This document shows, one piece after another, positions 2,941-53,382 of a stretch of DNA of 64,000 nt (position 1 is its first letter; every line of letters begins with the position of its first letter). Location of the stretch: assembly GCA_963721165.1 (NCBI GenBank), contig CAVRIE010000009.1, forward strand, positions 19,800 through 83,799, read 5' to 3'. The DNA comes from an uncultured Actinomycetota bacterium (GTDB lineage: Bacteria; Actinomycetota; Actinomycetes; Propionibacteriales; Nocardioidaceae). The notes beneath the pieces were generated by a model. The model searched no databases. It was not told the origin of the DNA and worked only from the letters and a program-made list of their open reading frames with translations. A program made the translations under genes and the position numbers.

Positions 2941-3985
2941 ATGGCCCGCCTCCGCACCGTCTCGCCCAACAGCTCGGGCTGGACACGACGCCGCTCCGGC
3001 AAGGGGTTCGTCTACGTCGACGCCTCCGGTGCGCGGCTGTGCGATGAGGACTCAGAGCGCTGCAAGGCGCTGGTGATCCCTCCCGCGTGGGAGGAGGTCT
3101 GGATCTGCCCCCAGCCCAACGGCCACATCCAGGCGGTCGGGCGTCGACGCGGCGGGTCGGAGGCAGTACCTCTACCACCCCGAGTGGCGCGTCAAGCGCG
3201 ACAAGATGAAGTTCGACCGGGTCGCCGAGGTCGCGGCGATGCTGCCCAAGGCGCGGGCGGCGATCCTCGAGCACATCGCCCTCGACGGCATGCCGATGGA
3301 ACGGGCGGCAGCGACCGCCGTACGCCTCCTCGACCTCGGCTACTTCCGGATCGGGTCCGACTCGTACGCCGACTCCAACGGCAGCTTCGGGCTGACCACG
3401 CTGGAGAAGCGGCACGTGCGGCGCTCGCAGGGTCGGCTGGTGTTCTGCTTCATCGGCAAGTCGGGGGTCGAGCACTGCATCGAGATCGACGACCCGCTGG
3501 CGGTCTCGGCCGTGGAGACCATGCGCCGGCGACGCGGCGGAGGGGACCGGCTGCTGGCGTACCGCGACGGCCGGCTGTGGAACCCGCTCGATGCTGTCGC
3601 GGTCAACGGCTACCTCCGGGACACCACTGGGGCCGAGATCACCGCGAAGGACTTCCGGACCTGGCACGCCACCGTGCTCGCGGCCGTGTCGCTGGCCTCC
3701 TCGGAGGAGCCGGGTGAGTCCAAGGCGTCGCGCAAGCGGGCGGTGCGGAACGCGATGGTGGAGGTGTCGGAGTACCTCGGCAACACCCCGACCATCGCCC
3801 GCAGCTCCTACGTGGACCCCCGCGTGATCGACCTCTACGAGGACGGTACGACGATCGCCTCCGCCGTACGCCGTTCGTACGACTCGCCTGACGAGCGGCA
3901 GATCGCCCTGGAGCGAGCGGTGCTGCGGATGTTGCAGGAGGACGCGGCCTCCTCGGAGCGGGCAGCACGTCGCAAGGCCGCCTGA
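2941..3985 (+). CDS. Bacterial DNA topoisomerase IB; frameshift near 3140
   Basis: IPPAWEEVWICPQPNGHIQAVG joins VDAAGRRQYLYHPEW after removing one G; FRIGSDSY, FIGKSG, KDFRTWHAT, LGNTPTIARSSYVDP. Confidence 0.9.
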
Positions 3986-44457: not shown

Positions 44458-45222
44458 TCAGTCGAAGACCCGGTGCACCTTGTGCTGGGCGGCCTGGGCC
44501 CGCGGCCGGATCACGAGCTCGTCGATGTTCACGTGCGAGGGCCGGGTCACGACCCAGGCGATCGCGTCGGCGATGTCCTCGGCGACCAGCGGCTCCGCGA
44601 CCCCGGCGTACACCTGCTCCGCCTTCTCCCGGTCCCCGCCGAAGCGGACGACTCCGAACTCGTCGGTCCTGACCATGCCGGGCGCGATCTCGCTGACCCG
44701 CACCGGCTGCCCGCACAGCTCGAGGCGCAGCGTCTCGGTGACGACCTGGGTGCCGTGCTTCGCCGCGGTGTACCCGCCGCCGCCCTCGTAGGCGATCCGG
44801 CCGGCGGTCGAGCCGACGTTGACGACGACGCCGTCGCCGCTGGCGACGAGCGCGGGGAGCAGGGCCTTCGTGACGTTGAGCAGCCCGATCACGTTCACCT
44901 CGTACATCGCGCGCCAGTCGTCGGGGTCGGCCTCGGCGACGGGGTCGGACCCGAAGGCGCCTCCGGCGTTGTTGACGAGCACGTCGAGCCGGCCGCCGAC
45001 CTGCTCCGCAAGGGCGGCGACGTCCCCGGTCGAGGTGACGTCGCAGCTGACCGCCGTGCCCCCGATCTCGTCGGCCAGGGACTGCACCCGGTCGGTACGG
45101 CGGGCGGCGCAGATCACGTGGTACCCCTCGGCGGCGAGGCGTCTCGCCGTGGCGGCGCCGATGCCGCTGCTGGCTCCGGTGACGACTGCGGTGCTGGGGG
45201 AGGTCTGCTGATCGCTGGTCAT
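44458..45222 (-). CDS. SDR oxidoreductase (YdfG-like)
   Basis: TGASSGIG, NNAGGA, YTAAKHG, EIAPGMVRT, RPSHVNIDELVIRP. Confidence 0.9.
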   Translation of the reverse strand: MTSDQQTSPSTAVVTGASSGIGAATARRLAAEGYHVICAARRTDRVQSLADEIGGTAVSCDVTSTGDVAALAEQVGGRLDVLVNNAGGAFGSDPVAEADPDDWRAMYEVNVIGLLNVTKALLPALVASGDGVVVNVGSTAGRIAYEGGGGYTAAKHGTQVVTETLRLELCGQPVRVSEIAPGMVRTDEFGVVRFGGDREKAEQVYAGVAEPLVAEDIADAIAWVVTRPSHVNIDELVIRPRAQAAQHKVHRVFD

Positions 45223-45302
45223 GTTCGGGATTCTTGCAGTCGCGTAGCCCGAGGGCCGGGCAGGGGGTGCGCCCTCGGGGACGAAAAGGCACACTTGTCC
45301 GC

Positions 45303-45749
45303 ATGACATCGAGGAGAATCGCGTCGATCGGGGCCGTCGTGGGAGGCGTCGGCTGGCTTCTCATGGCCGGTCTGATCTGGCTGAGCGGCGGCGACGGCGG
45401 TCAGCTCGGGACGTGGATGTACCAGTTCGGGCTGGCGGCGTTCGCCGTGGGACTGGCAGCCGCGGGGTACACGCTCGTGGAGAAGGCCCCGGTCTGGCTG
45501 CGCGGCATCGTCGCCGTCGCGACGTGCTTCTTCGTGCTGATGGTGTGGCTCATGGTCGACCCGGCGATCAAGGCGCTCTTTCCCGGCGACTCATGGCTCC
45601 ACGAGGCGGTGAGCGAGCTCGCCGCCGGGTTCGCCGCCGTGGTGCTCGGCTTGTGGGAGCAGCGGCGGATCGCCGCGAGGGCCCCCGTCGACCCGCGTGG
45701 GACGCGCCGGGCCGAGCCGCCCGTCCGGGGGCGTCGGGCCGCCCGCTGA
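45303..45749 (+). CDS. Hypothetical membrane protein (4 TM)
   Basis: Four hydrophobic segments, typical codon bias. Confidence 0.7.
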   Translation: MTSRRIASIGAVVGGVGWLLMAGLIWLSGGDGGQLGTWMYQFGLAAFAVGLAAAGYTLVEKAPVWLRGIVAVATCFFVLMVWLMVDPAIKALFPGDSWLHEAVSELAAGFAAVVLGLWEQRRIAARAPVDPRGTRRAEPPVRGRRAAR

Positions 45750-45780
45750 ACGTCGACGGGGTGGTAGACACCACTTTGCC

Positions 45781-45799
45781 TGAGGTAAGGCTTACCTAA
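45781..45799. promoter_or_regulatory. IdeR/DtxR/DmdR1 iron box
   Basis: TGAGGTAAGGCTTACCTAA matches TWAGGTWAGSCTWACCTWA at 18/19 positions. Confidence 0.85.
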
Positions 45800-45811
45800 T
45801 AACCTTGCCCG

Positions 45812-48522
45812 GTGCGTCTCGCCCCCACCGATCCTCTCCCCGCTGCCTGCTCCCGGCTCCGGGCGCGGTGCCGTTCGCGGCCCGGCTCGCGCAGTTCGGC
45901 GACCGGGTCGCGGTGCGTACGTCGGGGGAGACGCTCACCTACGCCGAGCTCGCCCGGCTGGTCGCGCGGCGCGCTGAGCTCCTCGGCGGCACCCGTCGGC
46001 TGGTGCTCGTCGCGGGTGCCAACCGCCTCGACGCGCTCGTCACCTACCTGGCCGCCCTCTCCGCGGGCCATCCGGTGATCCTCGTGCCCGGCGACAACCC
46101 CGGGAACCTCGAGGCGGTCGTCCGGGCCTACGACCCCGACGTCGTCGCGGGACCTGACGGTGAGCTCGCCGAGCGGCGGCCCGGCACCGCCCACGACCTG
46201 CACCCCGACCTCGCGCTCCTGCTGTCCACCTCCGGCTCCACCGGCTCGCCCAAGCTGGTGCGGCTCTCCGCCGAGAACGTCCAGGCCAACGCCGCGTCGA
46301 TCGCGTCCTACCTCTCCATCCGGCCCTCCGACGTGGCGGCGACGACGCTGCCGATGCACTACTGCTACGGGCTGTCGGTCATCAACAGCCACCTGCTCGT
46401 CGGCGCCTCGCTCATGCTCACCTCGCTGTCGGTGGTCGACGGCTGCTTCTGGGACGAGTTCCGTGACGCGGGGGCCACGACGTTCGCGGCGGTGCCGTAC
46501 ACCTTCGACCTGCTCGACCGGGTCGGCTTCGACGCCATGGACCTGCCCTCGCTGCGCTACGTCACCCAGGCCGGCGGCCGCCTCGCGCCCGAGCGGGTCC
46601 GCCGCTACGCCGAGCTCGGCCGGAGCCGGGGGTGGGACCTGTTCGTGATGTACGGCCAGACCGAGGCCACCGCGCGGATGGCCTACCTCCCTCCGGACCT
46701 CGCGCTGACCTCGCCGGGCGCGATCGGCGTGCCCGTGCCGGGTGGGTCGTTCCGCCTGGAGCCGCTGCCGGAGGTGCCGCTGACGCGCAGGGGTGCGCCG
46801 GACGTGGGGGAGCTGGTCTACGACGGGCCGAACGTGATGATGGGCTACGCCGAGTCGCCGGCCGACCTCGCCCTGGGGCGGGTCACCACGTCGTTGCGGA
46901 CCGGTGACGTCGCCCGTCGTACGCCCGAGGGGCTGTTCGAGATCGTCGGCCGCCGCAACCGGTTCGCCAAGGTCTTCGGGCTGCGGATCGACCTCGACGA
47001 GGTGGAGCGGGTGTACGCCGACGAGGGGATGCTCGTCGCGTGCGCCGCGGCCGAGGGCGCCTCGGGGGAGCGGCTCGTGGTCGCGGTCTCCGACGACGCC
47101 GGCCCGGTCGACGTCACGCGGGTCGCGGCCGTGGCGAAGGAGCACGTCGGCCTGCCACCCGGGGCCGTCGCCGTGTGCCCCGTGCGCGAGGTGCCGCGGC
47201 TGCCCAACGGCAAGCCGGACTACCGCGCGGTGGCCGCTCTCGCGGTGGGTCAATACCCAGGTATGTCGGAACTGCTCTCGACGGCGAGCTTGCCACGGGA
47301 GGAGCAGTCCCCGCATCCCTGGTAACTCGCCAGACCCCGGTACGACGGGCGCGCGGCTGCGCGAGGTCTACGCGGAGGTGCTCCGGCGCGACGTCGTCCG
47401 CGACGAGGACACGTTCGTGTCGCTGGAGGGCGACTCGCTGTCCTACGTCGAGATGTCGATCCGGGTGGAGGAGGTGCTCGGCCACCTCCCGCCGAACTGG
47501 CACGTCACGCCGATCGGGGAGCTCGCCCCCCGCGAGGGGCGGGCCCGACCCGGCCGGTCGCTCGAGATGAACGTGCTGCTGCGAGCCCTGGCGATCATCG
47601 CGATCGTCGGCACGCACGCCAACCTCTTCGTCGTCCTCGGCGGCGCACACGTCCTGCTCGGTGTCGCCGGCTTCAACTTCGGCCGGTTCCACCTGACCGG
47701 CGCTCCGCGCGCCGAGCGGGTACGCCACCTCGCGTCGAGCATCACCCGGATCGCGGTGCCCTCGGTCGTCGTCATCGGGGTCGTCGCGGCGTTCACCGAG
47801 GGGCTCGGCTGGCGCAACGCCCTCCTGCTCAACGGCGTCCTGGGGTCGCGCGGTTGGACCGAGCCCGCCTGGCACTACTGGTTCATCGAGGCACTGCTCT
47901 ACACGCTGGTCGCACTCACCCTCGTCATCGCGTTGCCGGTCGTGGACCGGGCCGAACGCCGATGGCCGTTCTGGGTGCCGATGACGCTTTCCTGCGCTCG
48001 GGTTGCTCGACGCGCTACGAGATGGTCGAGGTCATGGGCGGCGACGTCATCCACCGCGCGAACGTCGTGTTCTGGCTGTTCGCGCTCGGCTGGGCGACGG
48101 TGAAGGCCGCCACGACGTCGCAGCGGGTCCTCGTCACGGTCGTCCTGGTCGCGAGCGTCCCCGGCTTCTTCGACGACCTGGCGCGTGACGCGGTCGTCGT
48201 CGCGGGCCTGCTCGCGCTCGTCTGGGTCCGCGCGGTCCGGGTGCCCGCGTGGGCTGCTCGCCTCACCGGCACCCTCGCGAGCGCCTCGCTCTACGTCTAC
48301 CTGGTGCACTGGCAGGTCTACCCGTACCTCGAGGACGAGGTGCCGTGGCTCGCGACGGTGCTGTCCCTCCTCGCCGGCATCGTGGTGTGGCAGGCCGTGG
48401 ACCGGGTCACCCCGCCCGTCGTACGCCTTGCCCGCGAAGCGGCCTCCCGGGGCGTCATCACCGCTGCAACGGTCCGCGAAGAGTGGCGTTGGGGGAATGG
48501 GGAACAATCTCGCGTGGTTTGA
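45812..48522 (+). CDS. NRPS-like adenylation - carrier protein - membrane acyltransferase (AT3-like); frameshifts near 45845, 47250-47330 and 47990
   Basis: A motifs [32 protein letters not shown]; carrier [11 protein letters not shown]; AT3-like [27 protein letters not shown] in ORFs 45805..47325, 46904..48103, 47854..48522. Confidence 0.8.
48494..48519 (+). promoter_or_regulatory. SigR/SigH-type promoter upstream of mshA
   Basis: GGAAT-N18-GTT exact spacing. Confidence 0.7.
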
Positions 48523-48544
48523 CCCAACGGAGGTATGCCGTTTC

Positions 48545-49843
48545 GTGAGCTCTGTGTCCCCAGGCCCGGGCCGTCCCGTGCGCGGCCGCGTCGCGATGAT
48601 CAGCCTGCACACGTCCCCGCTCGACCAGCCGGGGACGGGTGACGCGGGCGGCATGAACGTGTACGTCATCGAGCTGTCCAAGCGGCTCGCCGAGCGCAAC
48701 ATCGCCGTGGAGATCTTCACGCGGGCGACCTCCTCCGCCCTGCCGCCCGTGGTCGAGGCGGCCCCCGGCGTCTACGTGCACAACGTCCACGCGGGGCCGT
48801 TCGAGGGGCTCTCGAAGAACGAGCTGCCGCCGCAGCTGTGCACGTTCGCCCGTGAGGTGCTCCGGGCCGAGGCGGGTCACGAGCAGGGCTGGTACGACCT
48901 CGTGCACAGCCACTACTGGCTCTCCGGCCAGGTCGGCGCGCTGGTCCGCGACCGGTGGAGCGTGCCGCTCGCCCACTCGATGCACACGATGGCCAAGGTC
49001 AAGAACGAGATGCTCGCCGAGGGCGACACCCCCGAGCCGATGGCTCGGGTGATCGGCGAGGAACAGGTGGTCGAGGCCGCCGACATGCTCGTCGCGAACA
49101 CCGACATCGAGGCCAAGCAGCTGATCAACCTGTACGACGCCGACCCCGGCCGCGTCGAGGTGGTGCACCCCGGCGTCGACCTGGGCGTGTTCCGGCCGGT
49201 CGGCCAGGCCGTTGCGCGGGCCCGGCTGGGCCTCCCCGCGGACGCCCACGTGCTGATGTTCGCGGGCCGGATCCAGCCCCTCAAGGCGCCCGACGTCCTG
49301 CTCCGGGCCGTCGCGGTGCTGCTCGAGCGCGACCCGACACTGCGCGACCGGCTCGTCGTGCCCGTTGTCGGCGGCCCCTCGGGCACCGGGCTAGAGCACC
49401 CCGAGTCGCTCGCCCAGCTCGCCACGTCCCTCGGCCTCGACGACGTCGTGCGCTTCGTCCCGCCGGTTGCGCAGTCGACCCTGGTCGACTGGTACGCCGC
49501 CGCGACACTCGTCTGCGTCCCGTCGTACAACGAGTCCTTCGGTCTGGTCGCCGTCGAGGCCCAGGCAACCGGTACGCCGGTCGTGGCCGCAGCCGTGGGG
49601 GGCCTCACGACCGCGGTGCGCCACGGCGTCTCCGGGCTGCTCGTCGAGGGGCACGACCCGGCCGACTACGCCCGCGCGTTCGAGCGGATCCTGCACCAGC
49701 CGGCGTTCCGCGAGGAGCTCTCCGCGGGCGCCGTACGCCAGGCCGCGAACTTCGCCTGGGAGGCTACTGCCGAGCGCACCGTCGAGGTCTACCGCCAGGC
49801 GAGCGCCGCCATGCGCAGCGACCTCGAAGGGATGACCCCATGA
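48545..49843 (+). CDS. mshA: D-inositol-3-phosphate glycosyltransferase
   Basis: [65 protein letters not shown]. Confidence 0.95.
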
Positions 49844-53311: not shown

Positions 53312-53382
53312 ACCAAGATCGTACGCAGACGCGACGGAGCACCTCGCCGCCCAGCCGTTCCCGCGAGAGGGGTTAGGCGACT

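What the first reader, a model, noticed from the sequence alone, without database searches (positions are those of the whole stretch)
45781..48522. Iron-repressed one-gene adenylation - carrier - membrane acyltransferase machine
A near-perfect IdeR box directly precedes a gene with an A domain, a phosphopantetheine-site carrier (GDSL) and a multi-TM AT3-like domain. There is no condensation or thioesterase domain and no siderophore cluster nearby. The architecture compresses DltA/DltC/membrane-transferase logic into one unit and predicts iron-starvation-induced acylation or aminoacylation of an envelope or exported acceptor. Substrate and acceptor are unknown.
Basis: partly seen in the sequence, partly recalled or inferred. 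Interest (0 to 1): 0.75.

Follow-up and report, generated by a model that had tools for sequence, protein, structure and literature searches.

The report
Iron-repressed self-loading membrane acyltransferase
A gene that fuses an acid-activating enzyme, a carrier arm and a membrane acyltransferase sits behind an iron-repressor site conserved across Actinobacteria, which points to an unstudied step of iron acquisition. In this assembly the gene is split into frame pieces by what are most likely sequencing indels.

Summary
The iron box is real: TGAGGTAAGGCTTACCTAA at 45781-45799. It is unique in the window and the best of only four such sites in the 4.36-Mb genome. The three domains are real too: adenylation (A), carrier (PCP, GDSL serine) and acyltransferase-3 (AT3). 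As assembled they are not one ORF. They lie in frames 1/2/1, and the conserved GTG start is out of frame as well. Same-genus relatives encode one 850-900 aa ORF. At least 8 of about 45 neighbouring genes in the window are split in the same way, two of the insertions are unique to this assembly, and dN/dS (0.20) matches intact orthologues. The breaks are therefore most likely assembly errors. The fused family is large and I found no study of it. It occurs in Nocardioidaceae, Streptomyces, Micromonosporaceae and Frankiaceae, among others. An iron box sits at the 5' end in 64 of 74 species loci, against a background of 0.005 per 200 nt. About half the loci also carry an FbpA-like ABC importer. 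The adenylation pocket has an invariant Cys where amino-acid activators have Asp235, so the substrate is probably a carboxylic acid, not an amino acid. This genome has no siderophore synthetase. Substrate and acceptor remain unknown.

The parts
45776..45781 (+). Putative -35 hexamer TTGCCT. The surrounding ACTTTGC is conserved in the genus.
   Evidence: Read from the sequence and the genus alignment. Inference: the strict sigma-70 scan found nothing.
45781..45799 (+). IdeR/DtxR-type iron box TGAGGTAAGGCTTACCTAA. It fills the 18-nt spacer between the putative -35 and -10.
45800..45805 (+). Putative -10 TAACCT (TANNNT type), 6 nt before the conserved GTG. This suggests a leaderless transcript.
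   Evidence: Sequence and conserved spacing. Inference.
45812..45814 (+). Conserved GTG start codon (CGGTGCG). In this assembly it is in frame 2 and out of phase with the A domain. A 1-nt deletion relative to G004 lies near 45837.
   Evidence: The N-terminal ~15 codons vary in the genus, so this shift is less certain. GTG at 45868 is an alternative start.
45847..47244 (+). Adenylation (ANL) domain in frame 1. Core motifs are conserved: [18 protein letters not shown], GRxxRxxK, PNGKxD. An invariant Cys occupies the Asp235 position (LPMHYCYGL).
47245..47335 (+). Variable A-PCP linker holding an eroded copy of a genus-specific ~100-nt hairpin. The frame changes from 1 to 2 at about 47306-47310 (an extra C in catCCCtgg is one placement consistent with G008, G015 and G016; the exact site is not resolved).
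47345..47500 (+). Carrier (PCP) domain in frame 2. The phosphopantetheine serine of GDSL is the codon at 47435-47437.
   Evidence: The PCP part of the model matches solved PCPs (4pxh_D, probability 0.99).
47567..47992 (+). AT3 domain, N-terminal part (TM1 to about TM5), in frame 2. It has the R-X10-H motif: Arg codon 47582-47584, His codon 47615-47617.
47993..48009 (+). Two single-base insertions, at about 47993-47995 and at 48009, that move the frame 2->3->1. Both are absent from all 10 relatives aligned.
48010..48522 (+). AT3 domain, C-terminal part, in frame 1, with the invariant HWQxYP motif. The TGA stop is at 48520-48522. There is no SGNH or other extracytoplasmic domain.

Best explanation
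The locus encodes a roughly 890-900 residue, three-domain membrane enzyme, probably intact in the living organism, under direct control of the iron repressor IdeR/DtxR.

Shown here:
- The architecture: a cytoplasmic ANL adenylation domain, a carrier domain with the phosphopantetheine serine, and a C-terminal AT3 domain of about 10 transmembrane helices with the R-X10-H motif.
- An IdeR-type operator lying between the putative -35 and -10, 12 nt before the conserved GTG.
- Conservation of that operator at this gene across Actinomycetota.

Inferred:
- With iron, Fe-IdeR occupies the promoter spacer and blocks transcription. Iron starvation releases it.
- The A domain adenylates a carboxylic acid that lacks an alpha- or beta-amino group, possibly a small polar or dicarboxylic acid.
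- It thioesterifies the acid onto the carrier's phosphopantetheine arm.
- The carrier is tethered about 25 residues from TM1. It docks at the cytoplasmic mouth of the AT3 domain and inserts the arm, the same pantetheine moiety that AT3 enzymes normally receive as acyl-CoA.
- The acyl group passes via the conserved TM1 His to an acceptor on the outer face of the membrane, an envelope polymer or an exported molecule.
- The product serves iron acquisition together with the iron-box-controlled FbpA-like (SBP_bac_6) ABC importer that accompanies the gene in other genomes.

The frame breaks in this window are assembly indels, not biology.
For: Architecture.

Fusion in relatives: single ORFs of 853-900 aa. 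At least 150 full-length cluster representatives. 540 related loci in species genomes.

Operator: unique in the window and best in the genome. Present in 13 of 16 same-genus genomes at identical spacing. Present in 64 of 74 species loci, against a background of 0.0055 per 200 nt. Consensus TTAGGTAAGGCTTACCTAA, with GTG about 12 nt downstream.

Regulator: DtxR equivalog at 347.6 bits against a cut-off of 290, with all metal ligands present.

The other three boxes in the genome precede an SBP_bac_6 ABC importer, a ZIP transporter and FTR1/efeUOB.

Link to the importer: SBP and/or permease within 4 kb in about 38 of 80 loci. It is divergent with two boxes in Streptomyces and same-strand directly downstream in Actinoplanes.

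Not an amino acid: invariant Cys166 aligns with the Asp of 3wvn and LgrA.

Assembly errors: at least 8 other genes split among about 45. The insertions are unique to the window. dN/dS is 0.20 against 0.17-0.22 for intact pairs.

PPTases are present.
Against: - No expression, binding or enzymatic data exist for any member that I could find.
- As assembled, the gene has 3-4 frameshifts in 2.7 kb. That is more than the window average of roughly 0.2 per kb (Poisson P about 0.003-0.02).
- AT3 membership is marginal by Pfam: 35.6 bits for the read-through, 29.1 for the G004 orthologue, cut-off 31.
- Fold searches gave no significant AT3 match.
- There is no SGNH or other outer-face domain, so how an AT3-only enzyme completes transfer is unknown.
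- The partner SBP gets only sub-threshold NCBIfam hits (aminoethylphosphonate and thiamine binders), so its ligand is not established.
- In this genome the importer is unlinked (contig C5 against C9).
Confidence: 0.6

Rival explanations
1. The copy in this genome is a genuine, recent pseudogene. The frameshifts are real mutations, and this strain has lost the function that its relatives keep.
For: There are three to four frame changes in 2.7 kb, denser than in the rest of the window. The linker hairpin is also eroded compared with relatives.
Against: The same assembly splits at least 8 other genes among about 45 by the same kind of +1 insertion. There are no in-frame stops within the pieces. 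Amino-acid identity to G004 is 75-89%. dN/dS of 0.20 equals that of intact orthologue pairs. The operator and the GTG context are intact. Other long-read MAGs in the set (names beginning MFD) also show broken copies, whereas short-read MAGs are intact.
Confidence: 0.15
2. The enzyme makes or exports a low-molecular-weight iron chelator instead of decorating the envelope. The AT3 domain moves the carrier-bound acid across the membrane onto a small soluble or lipid acceptor, or onto water. The FbpA-like importer then recovers the iron complex.
For: The genome has no NRPS condensation domain or IucA/IucC synthetase, yet keeps an iron-regulated adenylating enzyme. The gene is tightly associated with an SBP-dependent importer of unassigned ligand. 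An invariant Arg sits at pocket position 331. The nearest non-NRPS neighbours of the A domain are oxalate-, malonate- and succinylbenzoate-CoA ligases.
Against: Characterised AT3 enzymes acylate sugars of envelope or secreted glycans (PMC9558356). No release or hydrolase domain is present. One ATP per exported acid would be costly. The pocket reading is inference only.
Confidence: 0.13
3. It is an Aas-like lipid re-acylation enzyme. It activates a fatty acid and acylates a membrane lipid as part of envelope remodelling under iron stress, with no direct role in iron uptake.
For: The A domain also hits acyl-ACP--phospholipid O-acyltransferase / acyl-ACP synthetase and FadD/MbtM models. FadD10 is among the structural neighbours.
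Against: All those hits are far below their family cut-offs. Aas uses a PlsC-type domain, not AT3. The recurrent neighbour is an importer, not lipid genes.
Confidence: 0.07

Closest known systems
DltABCD D-alanylation of teichoic acids (Firmicutes)
   Same: The flow of chemistry is the same. An ANL adenylating enzyme loads a phosphopantetheinyl carrier in the cytoplasm, and a polytopic membrane acyltransferase passes the acyl group to an acceptor outside the membrane.
   Different: Dlt uses four separate proteins. Its membrane component DltB is an MBOAT, not AT3. Its substrate is an amino acid (DltA keeps the Asp; here it is Cys). It needs DltD and is not known as an iron-regulon member. This is an analogy, not membership.
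AT3 (Acyl_transf_3, PF01757) O-acyltransferases: OafA/OafB, Oac, OatA, mycobacterial SucT
   Same: A roughly 10-TM AT3 domain with the R-X10-H motif in TM1. These enzymes move an activated acyl group from the cytoplasm to an extracytoplasmic glycan (PMC9558356). SucT succinylates actinobacterial envelope polysaccharides (from memory).
   Different: Known members are thought to take acyl-CoA from the cytoplasm, and many need a fused SGNH domain. This protein has its own adenylation and carrier domains and no SGNH. The A-PCP fusion is not mentioned in the 2022 review of AT3 architectures.
Mycobactin acylation module MbtM (FadD33) - MbtL (ACP) - MbtK
   Same: In Actinobacteria it is IdeR-repressed. 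An acyl-AMP ligase loads a carrier protein, and an acyltransferase then installs the acyl group on an iron-acquisition molecule.
   Different: It uses separate soluble proteins, a GNAT-type transferase and a defined siderophore acceptor. The MbtM model hit is only 71.6 bits against a cut-off of 621.
Aas (2-acyl-GPE acyltransferase / acyl-ACP synthetase)
   Same: A single membrane-associated polypeptide joining an ANL adenylating domain to an acyltransferase that uses a carrier-bound acyl group.
   Different: It has a PlsC-type transferase, the ACP is supplied in trans, the acceptor is an inner-leaflet lipid, and no iron control is known.
Stand-alone A enzymes that load discrete carriers (VinN/CmiS6 type, PDB 3wvn)
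   Same: This is the best sequence match among solved structures (E 2.9e-26). It is an adenylation enzyme working without a condensation domain.
   Different: Those enzymes keep the Asp that binds a beta-amino group and feed polyketide lines. Here the position is Cys, and the product goes to a fused membrane domain.

Membership tests
ANL adenylating enzymes (PF00501) | Pfam score above the cut-off, and core motifs A3 (SGSTGxPK), A5 (YGxTE), A7 (TGD), A8 (GRxxxxxK) and the A10 Lys | tested here: met
   154.5 bits against a cut-off of 29.9. All motifs are invariant in 35 homologues.
Amino-acid-activating NRPS A domains | Asp235 (FDxS) binding the substrate amino group | tested here: not met
   The position aligns to the invariant Cys166 (MHYCYG) against 3wvn and LgrA. 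TIGR01733 scores 130 bits against a cut-off of 317.
Phosphopantetheinyl carrier domain (PF00550) | Pfam score above the cut-off, a conserved Ser in G-x-D-S-L, and a PPTase in the genome | tested here: met
   23.7-25.5 bits against a cut-off of 20.8. GDSLSYVE is invariant across families. The model matches solved PCPs. Two ACPS-family PPTases are present.
AT3 acyltransferases (PF01757) | Pfam score above the cut-off over the full profile | tested here: met
   The read-through window protein scores 35.6 bits against a cut-off of 31, over profile positions 6-317 of 326. The margin is small: the G004 orthologue scores 29.1.
AT3 acyltransferases (PF01757) | R/K-X10-H motif in TM1 and about ten transmembrane helices | tested here: met
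   [12 protein letters not shown], with Arg and His invariant in 25 sequences from several families. The AlphaFold model (pLDDT 88.8, pTM 0.87) has about 10 long helices.
AT3 acyltransferases (PF01757) | Fold match to a solved or predicted AT3 structure | tested here: inconclusive
   No PDB match at E<=0.001. The one borderline BFVD hit is unnamed (E 1.3e-3).
AT3-SGNH two-domain acyltransferases | Extracytoplasmic SGNH domain after an 11th TM helix | tested here: not met
   The protein ends after the AT3 domain and has no other Pfam domain.
IdeR/DtxR regulon | 19-bp palindromic operator overlapping the promoter, and the regulator present in the genome | tested here: met
IdeR/DtxR regulon | Iron-dependent repression and IdeR binding, measured | not testable with these tools
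No paper was found on any member.
Dlt system | MBOAT membrane component (DltB) plus DltD | tested here: not met
   The membrane domain scores as PF01757, and no MBOAT hit is listed. DltD was not searched for.
NRPS or NIS siderophore synthetase | Condensation or thioesterase domains, or IucA/IucC | tested here: not met
   No condensation domain or IucA/IucC in the protein or anywhere in the 97%-complete genome. A thioesterase domain was sought only in this protein.

The most novel reading that the evidence does not exclude
The family is the core of a siderophore-independent iron-acquisition route in monoderm Actinobacteria. Under iron starvation the enzyme would install a metal-binding acyl group, for example a dicarboxylic or hydroxy acid, on a wall or membrane-anchored polymer, or on an exported carrier. 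This would create a cell-surface iron trap that hands Fe(III) to the FbpA-like lipoprotein of the co-regulated ABC importer. It would also be the first AT3 enzyme shown to take its acyl group from a covalently attached carrier instead of acyl-CoA.
Probability: 0.2. Interest if true: 0.85.

Novelty: new variant of a known kind. Interest (0 to 1): 0.62.

Why it matters
AT3 enzymes are thought to draw acyl-CoA from the cytoplasm, and how the acyl group crosses the membrane is still debated. A version with its own adenylation and carrier domains fixes the donor covalently. That makes a natural handle for mechanistic and structural work.

The operator at this gene is conserved from Nocardioidaceae to Streptomyces and Micromonosporaceae, and the gene is repeatedly paired with an iron-box-controlled importer. 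This places an enzyme of unknown chemistry inside the core iron-starvation response of a major phylum. That includes this organism, in which no NRPS condensation domain or IucA/IucC synthetase was found. If the product is a surface or exported iron ligand, it would be a new route of iron acquisition.

For this window, the practical lesson is that the assembly carries many indel errors, so apparent gene breaks should not be read as biology.

Tried and rejected
- Fold search of the full model returned only adenylation-domain matches.
- Fold search of the PCP-AT3 model against the PDB and BFVD gave no significant AT3 match. Structural confirmation of AT3 is therefore inconclusive.
- Rfam over 45000-49000 gave only a chance microRNA hit.
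- The strict sigma-70 and terminator scan found nothing. The promoter assignment rests on conservation and the TANNNT rule.
- Five literature searches and two papers read found no description of an A-PCP-AT3 protein. The DmdR1-regulon paper concerns a different acyltransferase (desH).
- The S. meliloti rirA transcriptome paper (PMC1265945) is not held.
- Programmed frameshifting was rejected, because relatives read straight through the same sites.
- The linker hairpin as a repeated mobile element in this genome was rejected. There is a single copy only.
- Calling the partner transporter a proven ferric importer was rejected. NCBIfam gives only sub-threshold hits to aminoethylphosphonate and thiamine binders, although a conserved VNHYY motif is present.
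- Assigning a substrate from the specificity code (about C-Y-S-A-T-A-M-A-R-K) was rejected. It matches nothing I know.
Full report
**What is in the sequence.** The window is high-GC (about 70%). It lies on contig C9 of an 18-contig, 4.36-Mb genome of Nocardioidaceae affinity. At 45781-45799 stands TGAGGTAAGGCTTACCTAA. It matches the degenerate iron-box pattern TNAGGTWAGSCTWACCTNA without mismatch. It is the only such site in the window even with three mismatches allowed, and none appeared in 100 shuffles. Downstream on the same strand Pfam finds three things: an AMP-binding domain (154 bits) in ORF 45805-47325; a phosphopantetheine site plus the first half of Acyl_transf_3 in a frame-2 ORF ending at 48103; and the second half of Acyl_transf_3 in a frame-1 ORF ending at 48522. 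So the domains and the box are real, but in this assembly they are not one ORF.

**The fusion is real in relatives.**
- A six-frame search of 30 related genomes found the carrier/AT3 piece in 17 of 18 same-genus genomes, mostly inside open frames of 853-900 aa.
- Two were read in full. G008 (887 aa) and G004 (889 aa) encode A-PCP-AT3 in one frame, followed by mshA as in the window.
- tblastn of the G004 protein onto the window gives three collinear pieces: 45847-47244 in frame 1 at 89% identity, 47309-47992 in frame 2 at 82%, and 48001-48519 in frame 1 at 75%.
- The strongly conserved CGGTGCG, with the GTG start at 45812, is in frame 2.
- Joining the pieces, with X at each junction, gives a 900-aa protein. 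It passes the curated Pfam cut-offs for all three domains: 152.1 bits, 23.7 (>20.8) and 35.6 (>31).

**Are the breaks biological?**
- I compared 71 kb of the syntenic G004 contig with the window. At least eight other genes, out of about 45 with orthologues, are split between two frames in the window while intact in G004. The typical cause is a single inserted base (examples at 3142, 22140, 41904, 58464).
- The two insertions at about 47993 and 48009 are absent from all ten relatives aligned.
- Nei-Gojobori dN/dS between the window copy and six relatives is 0.20-0.24. Pairs of intact orthologues give 0.17-0.22. There are no in-frame stops inside the pieces.
- In the species set, broken copies occur in other long-read MAGs (names beginning MFD), while short-read MAGs are intact.
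- Against this, three to four shifts in 2.7 kb is more than the local average of roughly 0.2 per kb (Poisson P about 0.003-0.02). Two of them lie 16 nt apart and may be one local mis-call.
- My estimate is about 80-85% assembly error and about 15% true recent pseudogene.

**Iron control.**
- In 13 of 16 same-genus genomes the box lies in the same context, ACTTTGCnTGAGGTAAGGCTTACCTAATAACCTnnnnCGGTGCG.
- I read TTGCCT (45776-45781) as the -35 and TAACCT (45800-45805) as a TANNNT -10. The GTG lies 6 nt further on, which implies a leaderless mRNA. The operator fills the whole 18-nt spacer. This reading is inference: the strict consensus scan found no promoter.
- A pattern search of one genome per species returned 540 related loci. 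Eighty were kept, from Nocardioides, Marmoricola, Aeromicrobium, Micromonospora, Salinispora, Actinoplanes, Couchioplanes, Streptomyces, Phytoactinopolyspora, Frankiaceae and Jiangellaceae.
- Among 74 loci with an intact ORF and upstream DNA, 64 carry a box (<=3 mismatches) within a 200-nt window at the ORF 5' end. The rate elsewhere in the same loci is 0.0055 per 200 nt.
- The aligned boxes give TTAGGTAAGGCTTACCTAA, with a GTG about 12 nt downstream. Conservation inside the box is partly forced by the search pattern. The valid statistic is the enrichment.
- The genome encodes a DtxR/IdeR equivalog (347.6 bits, cut-off 290) with all metal ligands.
- The only other sites in the genome with <=2 mismatches precede an SBP_bac_6 ABC importer (C5:426888), a ZIP transporter (C5:509142) and FTR1/efeUOB (C10:711904).
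- Membership of the iron regulon is therefore well supported by comparison, but it has not been measured.

**Family and context.**
- The fused family is large. There are 1681 hits among 8000 scored candidates, the top 120 nearly all 840-940 aa and annotated only as 'AMP-binding protein' or 'acyl-CoA synthetase'.
- In the library of 50%-identity representatives, the best 150 hits still reach E = 1e-152, and most cover the whole query in one stretch.
- In Nocardioidaceae the gene is followed by mshA in 27 of 80 loci. This does not hold elsewhere and is probably incidental.
- The recurrent neighbour is an SBP_bac_6 binding protein with a double permease, found within 4 kb in about 38 of 80 loci. 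It is divergent, with two iron boxes between the genes, in Streptomyces. It is directly downstream on the same strand, followed by an ORF carrying the ABC ATPase domain (the permease matched by tblastn), in Actinoplanes. It is convergent in several Nocardioides.
- In this genome the importer lies on another contig but has its own box.
- Its ligand is not established. NCBIfam gives only sub-threshold hits to aminoethylphosphonate and thiamine binders. A VNHYY motif is conserved in four distant copies. From memory this recalls the tandem-tyrosine iron ligands of FbpA-type proteins. I did not test that.
- The 97%-complete genome has no condensation domain and no IucA/IucC. It has two PPTases.

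**Chemistry that can be inferred.**
- All ANL core motifs and the A10 lysine are invariant.
- The residue aligned with Asp235 of amino-acid-activating domains is an invariant Cys (LPMHYCYGL), both against 3wvn, the best solved match, and against LgrA. An amino acid is therefore an unlikely substrate.
- My reading of the specificity positions is about C-Y-S-A-T-A-M-A-R-K, with an invariant Arg at position 331.
- The non-NRPS neighbours are oxalate-, malonate- and o-succinylbenzoate-CoA ligases. That hints at a polar or dicarboxylic acid. It is speculation.
- The carrier GDSLSYVE block and the AT3 residues Arg and His (R-X10-H), a second His, NxxRF, WFxE and HWQxYP are invariant from Nocardioidaceae to Streptomyces.
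- AlphaFold gives a confident PCP-AT3 model (pLDDT 88.8, pTM 0.87) with about ten long helices and no extra domain. The basic stretch REGRARPGR before TM1 fits a cytoplasmic A-PCP.
- A review of AT3 architectures lists SGNH and alanine-racemase fusions but no adenylation or carrier fusion (PMC9558356).

**Mechanism proposed.** Iron starvation releases IdeR. The A domain loads an acid onto the carrier. The pantetheine arm, the same moiety as in acyl-CoA, enters the AT3 channel. The acyl group passes to an acceptor at the outer face. The product works with the co-regulated importer. The steps after domain identification are inference. Three rivals remain, with my estimates: a true pseudogene in this strain (0.15), export or synthesis of a small chelator (0.13), and Aas-like lipid re-acylation (0.07).

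**Relation to earlier notes of this scan.** After I had reached the above, look-ups showed that the same family had been reported from at least 11 other genomes, with the same reading. I reproduced the two central claims independently here, iron-box conservation and the neighbouring importer. I qualify one: the importer's 'ferric' label is not supported at equivalog level.

**Verdict.** The gene belongs to an uncharacterised, widespread, iron-box-controlled A-PCP-AT3 family, which is a new variant of known kinds (AT3 acyltransferases, Dlt-like logic). This particular copy adds a caution about assembly quality and one curiosity, the hairpin in the linker.

Noticed in passing
window 47245-47335 (and the same place in L011, L013, L014, L015, L017, L018, L020, L022): The A-PCP linker of this genus holds an in-frame, low-GC insert of about 100 nt that folds into a long, nearly perfect hairpin (35-40 bp, dG -53 to -71 kcal/mol in relatives). 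In 20 of 35 predicted pairs at least one genome shows compensatory changes on both sides. It is absent from other genera and is single-copy in this genome. The window copy is the most eroded, and it is where the first frame change lies. Its function is unknown. It could be a translational pause, an RNA processing site or a relic palindromic insertion.
   Followed up: partly
window 48486-48550: About 55 nt are almost invariant at the nucleotide level across the genus (GGGAATGGGGAACAATC..CCGGTGG-TTGAC-CCACCGG-AGGTATGCC.TTTCGTGA). The stretch overlaps the poorly conserved C-terminal tail of the AT3 gene and the region upstream of mshA. It has a small hairpin and a GGAGG, and no Rfam match. It may be an mshA leader or a translation-initiation element.
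   Followed up: partly
window, e.g. 3142, 18421, 21006, 22140, 22533, 40594, 41904, 53343-53376, 58464: Many genes in the window are split between frames relative to the syntenic G004 contig, mostly by single inserted bases, often after a G run. The assembly appears to carry frequent indel errors, so apparent pseudogenes here need read support.
   Followed up: partly
G000 contigs C5:426888, C5:509142, C10:711904: The iron-box regulon predicted for this genome is tiny. It comprises an SBP_bac_6 ABC importer, a ZIP transporter next to a pentapeptide-repeat protein, efeUOB (FTR1) and the A-PCP-AT3 gene. No NRPS condensation domain or IucA/IucC synthetase is present in the 97%-complete genome.
   Followed up: partly
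G000 C5:426996-429976: Divergent from the iron-box-controlled SBP gene is a 573-aa AMP-binding enzyme (acetyl-CoA-synthetase-like, with AMP-binding_C), followed by a further ORF (C5:428927-429976) that was not scanned. This may be a second adenylating enzyme under the same operator.
   Followed up: no
window 45234-45749: A 171-aa membrane protein with no Pfam hit lies directly upstream on the same strand and ends 32 nt before the iron box. It is conserved only in the closest relatives (8 of 80 loci).
   Followed up: partly
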